64,000 nt of DNA from Escherichia phage UGJNEcP3. The notes under the pieces were generated by a model. It had not been told where the DNA came from. It saw only the letters and a program-made list of their open reading frames with translations, and did not search any database. The translations under genes were made by a program, and so were the position numbers. Shown piece by piece: positions 6,513 through 62,692 of this stretch. Location of the stretch: the sequence record OV876907, one strand, 5' to 3'. Position 1 is the stretch's first letter; every line of letters begins with the position of its first letter.

Positions 6513-7637
6513 ATGGAAAGATTTATGGCAGAATTTGGACAAGGATATGTCCAGGTTCCTACATTATCTGAAAACAATGCTGTAAGGTACAAACTTAGTA
6601 TAGCTGGTAGTTGTACTAAGTCTACCACAAAAGCATATGTTAAATTTCAAGATGGGGACTTCGGTCCCCAGAATTTTCAAAATGGATTAAATCTTATAGA
6701 AATAGACGTTAGTGCCGAACCTAAAGTGGTGGCTAACAAAACTTATAGTTTTACAAAAGATTTTGATGTTATCTCTGAAGCTTTTATTACTTACATAAAT
6801 TCAATACCTGCAAACAGAATAGTTTGTTTAGTATCTTCTGGTAGATTAAACGCTTCACAGAAACTTATTGATTGGTTCCGTGCAGCAGGAAGTACAGCAT
6901 TCCCGTCTAAATGGATGATAGAGCGATTTGAGCCGTCTTATTCGGCCTTTTACGTTTCTGGTAGAAATACCATAGTGATGGAACACGTCCTTTATAATGA
7001 TGGGGTGTTTGTTGAAGATGTTTCTACACCATTAGAAGTCGTTTTTGACGATATCAGTGATGTCGGCGGTACCGGATATCCTATAAGAATAGTAGAAGAT
7101 GAAAATACTTATCTAAGTAATGGTGGGGAGGAAATAAAACGTTTCCCTACGGATTCTCCTACCACTCCTTGTGCTGATTATAATATGAAGCCTGGGGAGT
7201 TCTTTTATCTTAAATTCCAAATGATGTGCGACCAGGAATTAAAAGATTCAGAAGGGACTTCTCAAATGTCTGTTAGATTTTTTGATTCTAATAGTGCTTT
7301 GACCGGTACTGTAAATATGGAAATCCCGACTAATTTCCCTGCCGGGTCTTGGATGACTTTTGAGCGAGTAATTGAAGTTCCTGCTAATACAGAAACATTT
7401 ACATTGTATGCAAGAAAAACAGTGGCCAGTGGAGGTGGTGGTGTACGCAATGTGATGTTTGGGGAAGTATCAGAGCCGGAATCACAACCTAAATCAGCTG
7501 AATTTGGTGTAAATGGTATTCGTATGAATTTCGGTACCGAAACTAAGAATATGGGTATTACTATAGCCCAGTTATACGATAAAACAGGTACTAAACCGGG
7601 GCAGGTTTGGGTATCTGAATTTAGAGAAAAATATTAA
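6513..7637 (+). CDS. 35: long tail fibre hinge/connector gp35
   Basis: 374 aa immediately after gene 34; size and position as T4 gp35. Confidence 0.8.
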   Translation: MERFMAEFGQGYVQVPTLSENNAVRYKLSIAGSCTKSTTKAYVKFQDGDFGPQNFQNGLNLIEIDVSAEPKVVANKTYSFTKDFDVISEAFITYINSIPANRIVCLVSSGRLNASQKLIDWFRAAGSTAFPSKWMIERFEPSYSAFYVSGRNTIVMEHVLYNDGVFVEDVSTPLEVVFDDISDVGGTGYPIRIVEDENTYLSNGGEEIKRFPTDSPTTPCADYNMKPGEFFYLKFQMMCDQELKDSEGTSQMSVRFFDSNSALTGTVNMEIPTNFPAGSWMTFERVIEVPANTETFTLYARKTVASGGGGVRNVMFGEVSEPESQPKSAEFGVNGIRMNFGTETKNMGITIAQLYDKTGTKPGQVWVSEFREKY

Positions 7638-26850: not shown

Positions 26851-27222
26851 TTATTCCTTAAAGTGGGCTTTCAACATCTGGTAAACTGTCCAGGCTTCAG
26901 AATTATTAGAGATAGTGATTTTAGTCAAAGGGAATTCGCTTGGCTCAGATGGAGCCGCGTCTTCGCATTCATCTTCGGTATCGTCATCTTTTTCTTCTTC
27001 AAAGAAACGACGCTCATCTTTCTTTATGAATAGGCTCGTAAATTCACCAGTTGATAATTCCATTTTATACACATCACCATCTTCAATTCTGACTGGTCTA
27101 AATCCCTCGCCATTGATTATAGTATCGGCTATATTATCATTATCTGTACATAACAAACGGAATTTGCTTTCGGCATCATTATCTTTAAAATAATACCACT
27201 TATCGGTTTCAAATTTGGTCAT
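26851..27222 (-). CDS. hypothetical acidic protein (123 aa)
   Basis: start at MTKFETD ATG with AGGAG SD inside the upstream ORF end; acidic D/E-rich C-terminal half. Confidence 0.6.
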   Translation of the reverse strand: MTKFETDKWYYFKDNDAESKFRLLCTDNDNIADTIINGEGFRPVRIEDGDVYKMELSTGEFTSLFIKKDERRFFEEEKDDDTEDECEDAAPSEPSEFPLTKITISNNSEAWTVYQMLKAHFKE

Positions 27223-27433
27223 TATAATTCTCCTTCCAGAATTCAGTGCCTTCAGCAGTGATTTCACGGAACACTGCATAGATAGGGGTTTTATCACCCT
27301 GATTTTCGTATACATAAACCGACGATAAATGAGAAAACGTATCAGAATATTCCTTTTGAACCACGATTAAATCAGGGTTGAACAGAACATCTTCAAATTC
27401 TTCACGAGTCGAGTTCACAGTAACTTTAGCCAT
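27209..27433 (-). CDS. hypothetical protein (74 aa)
   Basis: early promoter at 27458-27496 then GAGAGGAAA SD. Confidence 0.55.
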   Translation of the reverse strand: MAKVTVNSTREEFEDVLFNPDLIVVQKEYSDTFSHLSSVYVYENQGDKTPIYAVFREITAEGTEFWKENYNDQI

Positions 27434-27457: not shown

Positions 27458-27496
27458 AGGGTAATAGTATCACACTACTACCCTGTTGTATACCAC
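27458..27496 (-). promoter_or_regulatory. early promoter (GGTATAC -35 variant)
   Basis: GTATAC, 18 bp, gTGaTACTAT, TACCCTATCAACAAA box. Confidence 0.5.
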
Positions 27497-27506
27497 TTTT
27501 TAAACT

Positions 27507-28058
27507 TTATGCAAAATGAATATCAGCATACTCAACAATAAAACTTTCAGGAACTACTTTAAAGGTGCCAAGGAACACGATGTTATACAGCTTAACACCT
27601 TCTTCAACCCATTGGTCTGTGATATAACCGGACATGCTGGTAGTTTCGTAAGTGGGGCCATACTTGCAATTGTATTCAAACGGTTTAGGTGAAACGAAAA
27701 AGACACCTTTACCTAATTTCCATTTAAAATCAACACCAACATGAGATCGGTCAATAGTTTCAACGTCTTGAGCTACTACGCCACGGATATCATTGCTTTC
27801 ACATACATACCCATCATGGGATTCAACTTCTTCAACTACAGGAGCGATGTATCCGGTAAATTCAGTAGATTCCAAGAATTTAGCACGCACATATCCGAAT
27901 TGAGTTTCGGTCTGGCCATTTTTAGGAATAATACGCACTTTAACTTCTTTAATTCCACCTACTAAATTGGTACGAATACCTGCAACTTCAACTAAACTGC
28001 CCGCAGCTTTTGAACGAGACTTTTTGGATACACGAACAATTTCACCGATAGTAATCAT
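27507..28058 (-). CDS. hypothetical protein, paralog A of a tandem pair
   Basis: 183 aa; C-terminal block ITDQWVEEGVKLYNIVFLGTFKVVPESF shared with next ORF. Confidence 0.65.
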   Translation of the reverse strand: MITIGEIVRVSKKSRSKAAGSLVEVAGIRTNLVGGIKEVKVRIIPKNGQTETQFGYVRAKFLESTEFTGYIAPVVEEVESHDGYVCESNDIRGVVAQDVETIDRSHVGVDFKWKLGKGVFFVSPKPFEYNCKYGPTYETTSMSGYITDQWVEEGVKLYNIVFLGTFKVVPESFIVEYADIHFA

Positions 28059-28100
28059 AATTTTTCTCTCTTGGTTAAAGGATTATAATCCATAAGAGCC

Positions 28101-28129
28101 ATTATAACATGGCTCTCGATAAAGTAAAC
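28101..28129 (-). promoter_or_regulatory. early promoter
   Basis: GTTTAC(28124-28129), 17 bp, caTGtTATAAT. Confidence 0.5.
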
Positions 28130-28131
28130 TA

Positions 28132-28680
28132 TTAATTCAATACATTAACCACTGCACTACGAGGTACTACGCTAAAATCACCAGCATGTACAACGTTCAG
28201 GAGTTCAACACCATCTTCAATCCACTGGTCTGTTACCCAACCACAGATAGGATTATCAAAAGGACGACGGATAGCCACAGCAGCACACAACAGGTCGGTA
28301 GGGCCTTGTTCTTCAACTTCTTGGAACAGGATGAACTCATCTTCATAAACCAGGTTTTTCTCTATTTTGTTATTATCTAACCGGCGGCCGTGGATGACGT
28401 AAGATTTGTCAAACCACTCACTTTTGGCGAATTCTTCAACAATAAATTCGCCTTCGCCAAAAACATCAGTCAGAGTTTTATAACCAGAAATCAAGGCCTT
28501 AATTTTAATTTCAGGTTCAACCAGTTTGTAGGTTTTGCCGATTTCGATAGTCTGAGTAGTCATAGTGGTTTCCTTAATTTCCAGTGGTTTAACAGGGCAT
28601 ACATAAGTGCTTAAAACATCAAAATCAATCAGTTTAGCTGCCGGATTCGGGGTGTATTTAGGGTTGTAATTAAATTTCAT
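28132..28680 (-). CDS. hypothetical protein, paralog B of a tandem pair
   Basis: 182 aa; C-terminal block VTDQWIEDGVELLNVVHAGDFSVVPRSAV. Confidence 0.65.
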   Translation of the reverse strand: MKFNYNPKYTPNPAAKLIDFDVLSTYVCPVKPLEIKETTMTTQTIEIGKTYKLVEPEIKIKALISGYKTLTDVFGEGEFIVEEFAKSEWFDKSYVIHGRRLDNNKIEKNLVYEDEFILFQEVEEQGPTDLLCAAVAIRRPFDNPICGWVTDQWIEDGVELLNVVHAGDFSVVPRSAVVNVLN

Positions 28681-29186
28681 ATTGTTCTCAATTCAATAAA
28701 ATCTACGAGTTCGGCATAAGATTTGCGGAACATTACTTGGCGGCCACCGATGACAACCTCATCTTCTGGTATTTCGTAAACAGCAAGATAGAATCCTTTA
28801 GAAGATAATTCTTTACGCTCTTCACGAGTGAACCAGCGCATCATATCATACTCACTGGCAAAAGCAAAATGGTAGAGGTTAACAAACCAGCCTGGAATAT
28901 AATCGTCGCAGCCTTCATAATCAGGTCGTTTCCACTTAGTTCTAATGGTTTTATTAGAATTTTCTACCAGCAACTTATCTTGACTTGGTAGTGGGATATT
29001 TTTATTAATGCTATGATGATGTCTAAAAATAGGTCTGTCTAAACCTACTTCTAATAACCAGCCTTCACTCCATGAGTCTGTTGTACTTCTATACGGGGTC
29101 ATTTGAGTACAGAGGTCTCGTCGTATTGTGATAGTGTTTCCATCATCTAAGATACTGAACGATGACTCAACTCGATAAATTTTCAT
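28677..29186 (-). CDS. hypothetical protein (169 aa)
   Basis: early promoter at 29208-29245 then GAGGAGAA SD. Confidence 0.6.
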   Translation of the reverse strand: MKIYRVESSFSILDDGNTITIRRDLCTQMTPYRSTTDSWSEGWLLEVGLDRPIFRHHHSINKNIPLPSQDKLLVENSNKTIRTKWKRPDYEGCDDYIPGWFVNLYHFAFASEYDMMRWFTREERKELSSKGFYLAVYEIPEDEVVIGGRQVMFRKSYAELVDFIELRTI

Positions 29187-29207
29187 TTTGTTCTCCTCAT
29201 GTTGATA

Positions 29208-29245
29208 GGGTAGATAATATCATGTCATGAGGAGAAGTAAACACT
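29208..29245 (-). promoter_or_regulatory. early promoter
   Basis: GTTTAC(29237-29242), 17 bp, caTGaTATTAT, CTACCCTATCAAC box. Confidence 0.55.
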
Positions 29246-61855: not shown

Positions 61856-62096
61856 TTAAATAATCCTCAAATTCATTTAATGTCATGCCTTCATCCCAAG
61901 CTATTTTAGGATCCGGCATTTTCATATAAGTGGTCTTAGAGCTTATAGGAAATATCCTAAAATCGCGATGACTTCCACTTAGCATATTAGCCGCTTTTAT
62001 AATGGTTTCACTATTATTCATCATAGGGGTACGTTGGAAACCGGCTAAAGCTTTAAGGACTATTATAACCGATACATCTTCAGGCAAATTACTCAT
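61848..62096 (-). CDS. hypothetical protein (82 aa)
   Basis: 55.x-type early ORF. Confidence 0.5.
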   Translation of the reverse strand: MSNLPEDVSVIIVLKALAGFQRTPMMNNSETIIKAANMLSGSHRDFRIFPISSKTTYMKMPDPKIAWDEGMTLNEFEDYLND

Positions 62097-62422
62097 TTAG
62101 CTGCCTTAACAATTTTCAGGTCAACGAATTTTTTCTTACGTTGATTCTTCATACGACGGATGGTTTTGTCTGTGATTTCACCTGGCTGCCAAGCTTTAGA
62201 TTCGACACCAAAGGCGGCCACATCAAACTCGTCGAGAATATATTGAACCAGGATTTCACGAATACCGTTCTTACCAATTTTTTGGTCTTTAGAGTGCATG
62301 ATTGGTAACAGTTCAGCAACCCATTGGTCAAGAACCTGAGGAGTTACAAAGCCAGTTTTCATCAGTTCATTAACTTTATCGAAAGCGAAAGAGTTCAGTA
62401 CGTTTTTAATAGCTTGTGACAT
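62093..62422 (-). CDS. hypothetical protein (109 aa)
   Basis: 55.x-type early ORF; basic C-terminus. Confidence 0.55.
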   Translation of the reverse strand: MSQAIKNVLNSFAFDKVNELMKTGFVTPQVLDQWVAELLPIMHSKDQKIGKNGIREILVQYILDEFDVAAFGVESKAWQPGEITDKTIRRMKNQRKKKFVDLKIVKAAK

Positions 62423-62491
62423 AATAATTTCCTCAGTTTAAAAATTTATAATCCGTAGGACCATTATACTCTGGTCCCAAGAGTTTGTAAA

Positions 62492-62692
62492 CTATTTTTG
62501 TGCTAATGCACCTTTCCAACCTTCATACATCATTGCGGCTGATATTAATATTGCTCCTGCGCATTTTGAATATTTGTTATTCCAAAACCAGTTTAGAAAA
62601 ACTTCGTCATCAATACCTTGAGCTATCATATTTTCAAAGAACTGACGACGGGCTTCAGCAATTCGTTGTGATAATTTAGATTCAGGATTCAT
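62492..62692 (-). CDS. hypothetical protein (66 aa)
   Basis: early ORF; hydrophobic C-terminal segment. Confidence 0.5.
   Translation of the reverse strand: MNPESKLSQRIAEARRQFFENMIAQGIDDEVFLNWFWNNKYSKCAGAILISAAMMYEGWKGALAQK

What the first reader, a model, noticed from the sequence alone, without database searches (positions are those of the whole stretch)
27507..28680. Tandem paralog pair sharing a conserved C-terminal domain
Adjacent genes of 183 and 182 aa have diverged N-terminal halves but a clearly homologous C-terminal ~40 residues (GYITDQWVEEGVKLYNIVFLGTFKVVPESF versus GWVTDQWIEDGVELLNVVHAGDFSVVPRSAV). Each has its own early promoter. This duplicate-and-diverge pattern is typical of phage proteins that target variable host factors.
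Basis: seen in the sequence. Interest (0 to 1): 0.45.

Follow-up and report, generated by a model that had tools for sequence, protein, structure and literature searches.

The report
T-even phage motB and motB.1 genes
The two adjacent genes are the known early genes motB and motB.1 of a T4-like coliphage; they do share a small C-terminal domain, but this was published in 2021, so the finding is correct but ordinary.

Summary
On the minus strand, 27507-28058 (183 aa) and 28132-28680 (182 aa) share a C-terminal block. BLASTP gives 18/36 identical, E=4e-11. Family profiles give 50 aligned columns, E=4e-14.

The window is a JS98-like T-even phage, 100% identical to Escherichia phage UGJNEcP4. The genes are motB (Pfam PF17613, 186 bits) and motB.1 (phrog_2333, E=3e-86), in the conserved order cef-motB-motB.1-motB.2-dexA.

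The shared C-terminal domain with different N-terminal domains, and the duplication idea, were published by Son et al. 2021. Kim et al. 2025 reported the LSm-like N-terminal domain that MotB.1 shares with GoF.

- The N-terminal halves are different domains (KOW-like versus LSm-like), not diverged copies.
- Only motB has its own early promoter. The motB.1 start overlaps the motB.2 stop (ATGA).
- Orthologues evolve under purifying selection (dN/dS 0.05-0.5), which gives no sign of an arms race.

New by-products:
- The 119-aa MotB.1 of the T4 reference comes from one extra G found only in that record.
- PEi20-like phages carry a single gene joining a KOW domain to a MotB.1-type C-terminal domain.
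- The shared domain is acidic and looks SH3-like rather than OB-fold.

The parts
27507..28058 (-). motB CDS (183 aa plus stop), orthologue of T4 MotB
   Evidence: ORF. Pfam PF17613 at 7.7e-55 and 185.6 bits. phrog_1671 at 3.3e-70 over residues 1-183. Annotated 'MotB-like transcriptional regulator' in UGJNEcP4 and JS98. tblastn gives 52% identity to T4 MotB.
27870..28058 (-). MotB N-terminal KOW/SH3-like domain (residues 1-63); strongly basic
27738..27869 (-). MotB acidic linker (residues 64-107); length-variable and predicted disordered
   Evidence: pLDDT is below 50 for residues 66-107. Length ranges from 12 to 54 residues across the family and net charge is -8.
27510..27737 (-). MotB C-terminal domain (residues 108-183), a five-stranded small beta-barrel
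   Evidence: Block-mean pLDDT is 82-93 from about residue 111 to 180. Strands lie at 118-130, 136-152, 155-162, 165-170 and 174-177, with a short helix between the last two.
27534..27641 (-). Shared core block in MotB (residues 140-175)
   Evidence: BLASTP segment, E=4e-11. DNA identity to the motB.1 block is 59%, with 15/36 identical at third codon positions.
28101..28129 (-). T4-early-type promoter of motB (GTTTAC-N17-TATAAT, with TG upstream of the -10)
   Evidence: The pattern has 5 matches in the window against 0.07 expected. T4 carries GTTTAC-N18-TATAAT at the equivalent position.
28132..28680 (-). motB.1 CDS (182 aa plus stop)
   Evidence: ORF. phrog_2333 at 3.3e-86 over residues 1-182. 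Annotated motB.1 in JS98. The exact sequence is UGJNEcP4 CAH1615675.1.
28555..28680 (-). MotB.1 N-terminal extension (residues 1-42); predicted disordered but conserved, and it carries the motif DFDVLSTYVCPVKPL (residues 19-33, 28582-28626)
   Evidence: pLDDT is below 50. dN/dS is 0.05-0.31 against five orthologues. The motif occurs once in the six-frame translation of the window and recurs in the linker of KOW-type relatives.
28309..28554 (-). MotB.1 LSm-like/SH3-like N-terminal domain (residues 43-124); acidic
   Evidence: The AF2 model has strands at 50-53, 78-86, 93-100 and 105-112 and a helix at 61-74. phrog_622, the family of the window's GoF-like protein, hits residues 44-126 at E=3.7e-4. 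Kim et al. 2025 describe the fold. Net charge is -7.
28135..28308 (-). MotB.1 C-terminal domain (residues 125-182), homologous to the MotB C-terminal domain
   Evidence: hhalign E=4.4e-14. Strands lie at 134-137, 145-155, 158-165, 168-173 and 177-181, with a short helix before the last strand. Net charge is -4 and pI 4.3.
28147..28254 (-). Shared core block in MotB.1 (residues 143-178)
   Evidence: BLASTP segment. The stretch C146-G167 is invariant except position 154, and S170-S175 is invariant, in 20 sequences that are 75-95% identical overall.
28677..29186 (-). motB.2 CDS (169 aa). Its stop codon overlaps the motB.1 start (ATGA), so it is probably co-transcribed with motB.1 and translationally coupled to it
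   Evidence: phrog_1106 at 4.9e-51. Annotated motB.2 in JS98.
29214..29242 (-). Early-type promoter upstream of motB.2 (GTTTAC-N17-TATTAT); the probable promoter for motB.2 and motB.1

Best explanation
The region holds the early genes motB and motB.1 of a JS98-like T-even coliphage. Each encodes a two-domain protein built from small beta-barrels. They share a C-terminal barrel of about 55-75 residues with the core G-[YW]-[IV]-T-D-Q-W-[IV]-E-[ED]-G-V-x-L-x-N-[IV]-V. Their N-terminal domains are unrelated: a basic KOW/SH3-like domain in MotB, and an acidic LSm-like domain of the GoF/Frd.2 family in MotB.1, preceded by a conserved disordered peptide.

Shown here: the homology of the C-terminal domains, the different N-terminal families, the conserved gene order, purifying selection, and an old divergence with no recent gene conversion.

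Inferred history: an ancestral gene of the form KOW-linker-CTD, of the kind still found as a single copy in PEi20-like and Karamvirus-like phages, was duplicated. The upstream copy then exchanged its KOW domain for an LSm-like domain.

Inferred mechanism: by orthology with T4 MotB (PMC6070864, PMC7827196), this MotB coats DNA without sequence specificity and remodels H-NS/StpA-DNA complexes early in infection. My inference is that the basic KOW domain supplies the DNA contact. The acidic shared C-terminal domain would then be a protein-binding or self-association module that both paralogs use, so that MotB.1 brings a different N-terminal activity to the same partner. I put this mechanistic part at about 0.35-0.4. 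motB has its own early promoter. motB.1 is expressed with motB.2 from the promoter upstream of motB.2.
For: Identity: the region is 100% identical to Escherichia phage UGJNEcP4 and 92-95% identical to JS98-like phages. Gene order matches JS98 and T4.

Family assignment: Pfam and PHROG hits.

C-terminal homology: with matching strand patterns in two independent AF2 models.

Old divergence: the shared block is 59% identical at the DNA level, 15/36 at third codon positions, and the longest identical run is 8 nt.

Purifying selection: dN/dS 0.05-0.5.

Family size: a C-terminal-domain profile finds only 35 representatives among 1.84 billion proteins. Only two copies occur in the window.

Mosaics and the single-copy state.

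Charge: the MotB KOW domain has net +7 and pI 10.4. The C-terminal domains have net -2 and -4.

Promoters and coupling.

Literature: MotB binds DNA non-specifically, co-purifies with H-NS and StpA, is toxic, and doubles burst size. The C-terminal domain is shared with MotB.1 and a duplication was proposed. The MotB.1 N-terminal domain is LSm-like.
Against: No experiment has assigned DNA binding or H-NS association to a particular MotB domain, and Son et al. 2021 consider either domain possible. Net charge is a crude proxy. T4 delta-motB.1 has no phenotype under laboratory conditions, and MotB.1 had no effect in the RNA reporter assay, so no function is established for MotB.1. The sequence link between the MotB.1 N-terminal domain and GoF is weak here: phrog_622 gives E=3.7e-4, and my own hhalign gives only a 17-column match at E=0.054. 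The direction of the evolutionary scenario (single gene first) is not rooted by a phylogeny. The AF2 models are of moderate confidence (mean pLDDT 68 and 71).
Confidence: 0.88

Rival explanations
1. Whole-gene tandem duplication followed by divergence along the full length. On this reading the N-terminal halves are homologous but have diverged beyond recognition, driven by an arms race with variable host targets.
Against: Profile-profile comparison aligns only the C-terminal domains. The MotB.1 N-terminal domain has its own relatives in the GoF family (PMC12152347). Genes joining a KOW domain to a MotB.1-type C-terminal domain exist, and so do forms with a doubled LSm-like domain, which shows domain shuffling. 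dN/dS is below 0.5 everywhere. The two N-terminal domains have opposite charge.
Confidence: 0.07
2. The shared C-terminal domain is the nucleic-acid-binding module, the OB-fold assignment of Son et al. 2021. Both proteins would bind DNA or RNA through it, and the N-terminal domains would modulate specificity.
For: HHpred in Son et al. 2021 matched the MotB C-terminal domain to the OB domain of aIF5A. The extreme conservation of the core is compatible with binding an invariant ligand such as nucleic acid.
Confidence: 0.3
3. The similarity is maintained or created by recent gene conversion or recombination between the neighbouring genes, rather than by old paralogy under protein-level selection.
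For: T-even genomes are mosaic, and the two blocks lie only about 600 bp apart.
Against: The blocks are 59% identical at the DNA level. Third codon positions are near saturation (15/36) and the longest identical run is 8 nt. Each type of C-terminal domain is separately conserved across genera.
Confidence: 0.02

Closest known systems
T4 MotB (NP_049626; Pfam PF17613; Patterson-West et al. 2018; Son et al. 2021)
   Same: It is the orthologue of the 183-aa gene. It has the same position between cef and motB.1, the same KOW-like N-terminal domain plus C-terminal domain, an early promoter, and 52% identity.
   Different: The window's protein carries an acidic linker insertion of about 24 residues (VVEEVESHDGYVCESNDIRGVVAQD) that T4 MotB lacks. 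No biochemistry exists for this orthologue.
T4 MotB.1 (P39415; Son et al. 2021 'Category 2'; Kim et al. 2025)
   Same: It is the orthologue of the 182-aa gene. It lies immediately upstream of motB and has an LSm-like N-terminal domain and a MotB-related C-terminal domain.
   Different: The window's protein has a 42-residue conserved N-terminal extension that T4 lacks. The T4 reference protein (119 aa) is cut off inside the C-terminal domain by one extra G found only in AF158101/NC_000866. Other T4 records encode 143 aa with the full domain.
Single-copy 'MotB' of Edwardsiella phage PEi20 and Enterobacter phages such as CIP9
   Same: It occupies the same slot between motB.2 and cef. It has a KOW N-terminal domain like MotB and a MotB.1-type C-terminal domain. 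Its linker carries the motif D-x-D-V-x-x-M-Y...P-L that sits at the N-terminus of the window's MotB.1.
   Different: There is one gene instead of two, and no LSm-like domain in that gene.
T4 GoF and Frd.2 (LSm-like fold family, Kim et al. 2025)
   Same: The N-terminal domain of MotB.1 resembles theirs. A GoF-like gene lies about 1 kb away in the window (26851-27315).
   Different: GoF and Frd.2 lack the MotB C-terminal domain. Sequence similarity to MotB.1 is marginal.
Other phage proteins that act on H-NS (T7 gp5.5, T4 Arn), cited from my own knowledge and from Son et al. 2021
   Same: They are early, non-essential proteins that perturb H-NS-dependent silencing. Arn is acidic, like MotB.1.
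   Different: There is no sequence or fold relationship. gp5.5 blocks H-NS oligomerisation and Arn is a DNA mimic, whereas MotB binds DNA itself.

Membership tests
MotB (Pfam PF17613 / phrog_1671) | Full-length match to the family model above the curated cut-off | tested here: met
   The 183-aa protein scores 185.6 bits against a cut-off of 25, and phrog_1671 gives 3.3e-70 over residues 1-183. The 182-aa protein matches only with residues 141-177 (35 bits), so it belongs at domain level only.
MotB (Pfam PF17613 / phrog_1671) | N-terminal KOW/SH3-like domain | tested here: met
MotB (Pfam PF17613 / phrog_1671) | Conserved position between cef and motB.1/motB.2/dexA, with its own early promoter | tested here: met
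MotB (Pfam PF17613 / phrog_1671) | Non-specific DNA binding, co-purification with H-NS and StpA, toxicity on expression | not testable with these tools
   Known only for T4 MotB (PMC6070864, PMC7827196).
MotB.1 (phrog_2333; Son 2021 Category 2) | Full-length match to the family profile, and position immediately upstream of motB | tested here: met
   phrog_2333 gives 3.3e-86 over residues 1-182. Synteny is shown. The best database hits listed are 70-94% identical over 91-100% of the query length.
MotB.1 (phrog_2333; Son 2021 Category 2) | C-terminal domain homologous to the MotB C-terminal domain | tested here: met
   BLASTP E=4e-11. hhalign gives 98.2% probability and E=4.4e-14.
LSm-like fold family GoF/MotB.1/Frd.2 (Kim et al. 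2025) | N-terminal bent five-stranded antiparallel beta-sheet related to GoF | tested here: inconclusive
OB-fold, cold-shock DNA-binding domain (SCOPe b.40.4.5), the published assignment for the C-terminal domain | Five-stranded barrel with a helix between strands 3 and 4, and nucleic-acid binding | tested here: inconclusive

The most novel reading that the evidence does not exclude
The shared, acidic and nearly invariant C-terminal barrel may not be a DNA-binding OB fold. It may be a docking or hetero-association module, SH3/Tudor-like, through which MotB and MotB.1 engage one common partner or each other. The partner could be, for example, H-NS or StpA. On this reading MotB.1 acts as an adaptor or antagonist of the MotB/H-NS system. 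MotB.1 is acidic throughout and carries a conserved disordered peptide (DFDVLSTYVCPVKPL). In single-copy relatives the same peptide sits in the linker between the KOW domain and the C-terminal domain. Published negative results on T4 MotB.1 would also need re-checking. The annotated 13.8-kDa protein is truncated inside this domain, and it is not known here which form was expressed in those experiments.
Probability: 0.2. Interest if true: 0.45.

Novelty: already known. Interest (0 to 1): 0.15.

Why it matters
The main finding adds nothing to the literature. Son et al. 2021 described the C-terminal domain shared by MotB and MotB.1 and proposed a duplication. Kim et al. 2025 described the MotB.1 N-terminal domain.

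The by-products have modest practical value for people working on T4 early genes:
- The reference annotation of T4 MotB.1 (119 aa, UniProt P39415) is truncated by a single-base difference that other T4 genome records lack. Constructs and models based on it lack half of the conserved domain.
- The family is a small set of shuffled modules confined to T4-like phages. This points to domain-dissection experiments to find out which module binds DNA and which binds H-NS.

Tried and rejected
- Sequence searches of both proteins against PDB chains found nothing meaningful; the best E-values were 0.47 and 0.066, both chance hits.
- NCBIfam found nothing. PADLOC gave only a chance Csm5 hit at E=0.008, so there is no link to a known defence or anti-defence family.
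- Direct BLASTP of MotB.1 against the window's GoF-like protein found nothing. A local hhalign of the MotB.1 family against a GoF alignment gave only 17 columns at E=0.054. I therefore rely on the PHROG hit and the published structural work for the LSm-like assignment.
- Gene conversion was rejected on nucleotide identity.
- A third copy of the domain in the window was sought with an HMM and not found; the next best E-value was 0.6.
- A motB.1-specific promoter was sought with a relaxed scan. Only 9/12 matches appeared, 125-190 nt upstream inside motB.2.
- I considered programmed frameshifting to explain the T4 motB.1 frameshift. I rejected it because every other T4 record lacks the extra base.
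- Six long proteins with multiple short matches in the representative search (P0258, P0262-P0264, P0267, P0270) were not examined. They are probably repeat-driven false positives.

Full report
**What is there.** The window carries two adjacent minus-strand ORFs at exactly the reported coordinates: 27507-28058 (183 aa) and 28132-28680 (182 aa). The surrounding 3 kb is 100% identical to Escherichia phage UGJNEcP4 and 92-95% identical to JS98, JS10, WG01, QL01 and other JS98-like T-even phages. JS98 is a Dhakavirus. In JS98 the same genes are annotated motB and motB.1. The gene order there is 39, 39.1, 39.2, goF-like, cef, motB, motB.1, motB.2, dexA, dexA.1, dda, which is also the order in T4.

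**Family assignment.**
- The 183-aa protein matches Pfam PF17613 (motB) at 185.6 bits and phrog_1671 at 3.3e-70 over its full length.
- The 182-aa protein matches phrog_2333 (unknown function) at 3.3e-86 over its full length.
- The 182-aa protein matches the Pfam motB model only with residues 141-177, at 35 bits against a cut-off of 25.

**Is the similarity real?** Yes.
- BLASTP of the two proteins gives one significant segment: MotB 140-175 against MotB.1 143-178, 18/36 identical, no gaps, E=4e-11.
- I built alignments of each family from database homologues. Profile-profile comparison extends the homology to 50 columns, MotB 114-176 against MotB.1 130-179, at 98.2% probability and E=4.4e-14. 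MotB.1 has an 11-13-residue deletion in the first hairpin. Nothing aligns in the N-terminal halves.
- AlphaFold2 models (mean pLDDT 71 and 68) give both C-terminal domains the same run of strands, with a short helix between the last two. In MotB the strands are 118-130, 136-152, 155-162, 165-170 and 174-177. In MotB.1 they are 134-137, 145-155, 158-165, 168-173 and 177-181.
- At the DNA level the shared block is only 59% identical. Third codon positions match at 15 of 36, and the longest identical run is 8 nt. The paralogy is therefore old and is maintained at the protein level, not by gene conversion.
- An HMM of the domain finds exactly two copies in the 64-kb window (E=5e-39 and 8e-24; next best 0.6).

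**Promoters.** An exact T4-early-type element, GTTTAC-N17-TATAAT with a TG extension, lies at 28129-28101, between the motB.1 stop and the motB start. This pattern has 5 matches in the window against 0.07 expected. T4 carries an equivalent element at the same place. motB.1 has no such element. Its ATG overlaps the motB.2 stop codon (ATGA at 28680-28677). The nearest strong match, GTTTAC-N17-TATTAT at 29242-29214, lies upstream of motB.2. Only 9/12 matches occur inside motB.2. The claim 'each has its own early promoter' is therefore true for motB and not for motB.1.

**The N-terminal halves are different domains.**
- MotB.1 has a 42-residue N-terminal extension that is predicted disordered. It is followed by an acidic beta-rich domain at residues 43-124.
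- That MotB.1 domain gives a weak hit to phrog_622, the family of the window's GoF-like protein, at E=3.7e-4.
- Kim et al. [quoted passage not shown]
- My own hhalign against a small GoF alignment was only marginal, at 17 columns and E=0.054. I treat this link as published rather than independently confirmed.

**Distribution and history.** A profile of the C-terminal domain, searched against 1.84 billion representative proteins, found only 35 hits at E<=1e-3. About 29 of them are small proteins resembling those of T4-like phages. The family is therefore tiny and lineage-restricted. The hits and the related loci show module shuffling:
- Some genes join a KOW-type N-terminal domain to a MotB.1-type C-terminal domain (P0245, P0249, P0252, P0253, P0256, P0257, P0260, P0261).
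- Some have two LSm-like domains before the C-terminal domain (P0244; loci L011-L013), and other ~250-aa variants such as P0255 and P0011 carry an extra, unassigned ~70-residue N-terminal segment.
- RB69-like loci have three genes bearing the domain in a row.
- Edwardsiella phage PEi20 and Enterobacter phages such as CIP9 have a single gene between motB.2 and cef. It consists of a KOW domain, a linker and a MotB.1-type C-terminal domain.

The linker of that single gene contains the motif D-x-D-V-x-x-M-Y-x-x-x-[IL]-x-P-[LI]. The same motif, DFDVLSTYVCPVKPL, sits in the disordered N-terminal extension of the window's MotB.1. It occurs nowhere else in the window. The most economical history is duplication of a KOW-linker-CTD gene, followed by replacement of the KOW domain with an LSm-like domain in the upstream copy. 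This is inference, and I did not build a rooted tree.

**Selection.** I compared MotB.1 with five orthologues by the Nei-Gojobori method. dN/dS was 0.05-0.31 for the N-terminal extension, 0.14-0.50 for the N-terminal domain and 0.15-0.33 for the C-terminal domain. This supports translation from the first ATG and gives no hint of diversifying selection. Within the MotB.1 family the stretch C146-G167 (CGWVTDQW-x-EDGVELLNVVHAG, x = position 154) and S170-S175 (SVVPRS) are invariant in sequences that are 75-95% identical overall.

**Mechanism.** T4 MotB binds unmodified and glucosyl-hydroxymethylated DNA tightly, without sequence specificity. It co-purifies with H-NS and StpA, changes the H-NS footprint, is toxic when expressed, and doubles burst size (PMC6070864; PMC7827196). 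By orthology the 183-aa protein should do the same.

T4 delta-motB.1 has no laboratory phenotype, and MotB.1 had no effect in an RNA reporter assay. What the shared domain does is unknown, and Son et al. consider either domain a possible DNA binder. My analysis adds two points:
- The shared domain is acidic in both families, with mean net charges of -2.1 and -4.2, whereas the KOW domain is strongly basic.

I therefore favour, at about 0.35-0.4, a model in which the KOW domain contacts DNA and the shared domain is a protein-docking or self-association module. The main rival is that the shared domain binds nucleic acid, at about 0.3.

**Comparison with what is known, and novelty.** The central observation was published by Son et al. 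[quoted passage not shown] The finding is therefore correct but already known. The 'variable host factor' gloss is not supported.

**By-product on the T4 reference.** In NC_000866/AF158101, motB.1 is annotated as 119 aa and ends ...GWVTDQWIGRWR*, in the middle of the conserved core. The rest of the domain (EDGVELLNVVHAGEYSVVPRSAVVAILN) continues in the next frame. The cause is a single extra G.
- A 201-nt query across the site matches only those two records, which hold the same sequence, at 100% over 201 nt.
- At least 13 other records match over 200 nt at 99.5%. They are 11 other T4 genome records, including T4T, plus RB55 and RB59.
- MT984581 encodes a 143-aa MotB.1 with the complete domain.
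- Neither paper mentions a frameshift.
- The isolated 29-aa RB69 peptide that Son et al. list as 'Category 3' may be a remnant of the same kind. I did not check this.

Noticed in passing
L002:3800-3810 (NC_000866 about 7300-7310), compared with L037 and window 28190-28215: The T4 reference motB.1 (119 aa, P39415) is truncated inside the conserved C-terminal core by one extra G (ATTGGAAGATGG against ATTGAAGATGG). Only AF158101/NC_000866 has it. Eleven other T4 genome records, plus RB55 and RB59, lack it, and MT984581 encodes a 143-aa protein with the full domain. The two papers on MotB.1 do not mention this.
   Followed up: yes
window 29191-29236 (-), upstream of motB.2: An 11-bp hairpin (UUCUCCUCAUG / CAUGAGGAGAA; -19.5 kcal/mol, z=-4.4) pairs the motB.2 Shine-Dalgarno sequence. 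The -10 element of the early-type promoter lies in its loop. Transcripts reading through from dexA would have the ribosome-binding site occluded, and transcripts started at the local promoter would not. This is a layout known for several T4 genes; that statement rests on my own knowledge.
   Followed up: partly
window 28094-28117 (-), between motB.1 and motB; also 27458-27484 (-), upstream of cef: A 9-bp hairpin (GAGAGCCAU / AUGGCUCUU) spans the -10 element of the motB promoter. T4 has a different sequence with the same pairing (GGGACCA / TGGTCCC) at the same place. A 12-bp hairpin precedes cef. These may be 3' stabilisers or terminators for the upstream transcripts.
   Followed up: partly
window 28582-28626 (-), MotB.1 residues 19-33: The motif DFDVLSTYVCPVKPL is conserved in a region predicted disordered. 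It recurs in the linker between the KOW domain and the C-terminal domain of the single-copy relatives, for example PEi20 DTDVAHMYLTQIRPL. A 'DGYV' element in the window's MotB linker (residues 81-84) precedes that motif in several relatives (P0253, P0256, P0257). It may be a docking peptide or an extra strand of the C-terminal domain.
   Followed up: partly
window 28561-28577 (-), inside motB.1: Met40 is preceded by a good Shine-Dalgarno sequence (AAGGAAACCACUAUG). Some database records annotate 142/143-aa forms starting there (P0277, P0286), and T4 MotB.1 starts at the equivalent of residue 44. A shorter isoform may be made alongside the 182-aa protein. The upstream 39 codons are nevertheless under purifying selection.
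   Followed up: partly
L011-L013 (3001-3744); L014 and L017; proteins P0011, P0068, P0244, P0255: Copy number and architecture vary between genera. VR20/VR25-like phages have a MotB.1 with two LSm-like domains in tandem. Variants of about 250 aa carry an extra N-terminal domain of about 70 residues. RB69-like phages have three genes bearing the C-terminal domain in a row, and motB.2 is displaced.
   Followed up: partly
window 62463-62492 (-): An early-type promoter is identical over 30 nt to the T4 motB promoter (GTTTACAAACTCTTGGGACCAGAGTATAAT). Here it precedes an unrelated 109-aa ORF (62093-62422).
   Followed up: no
window 26851-27315 (-) against 27209-27433 (-): The mechanical GoF-like ORF (154 aa) overlaps cef by about 107 nt. 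The conserved start is probably Met32 (MTKFETDKWYYF, at about 27222), which leaves an overlap of about 14 nt with the end of cef. In PEi20-like phages the goF-like gene is about twice as long (276-298 aa) and is followed by a second goF-like gene.
   Followed up: no
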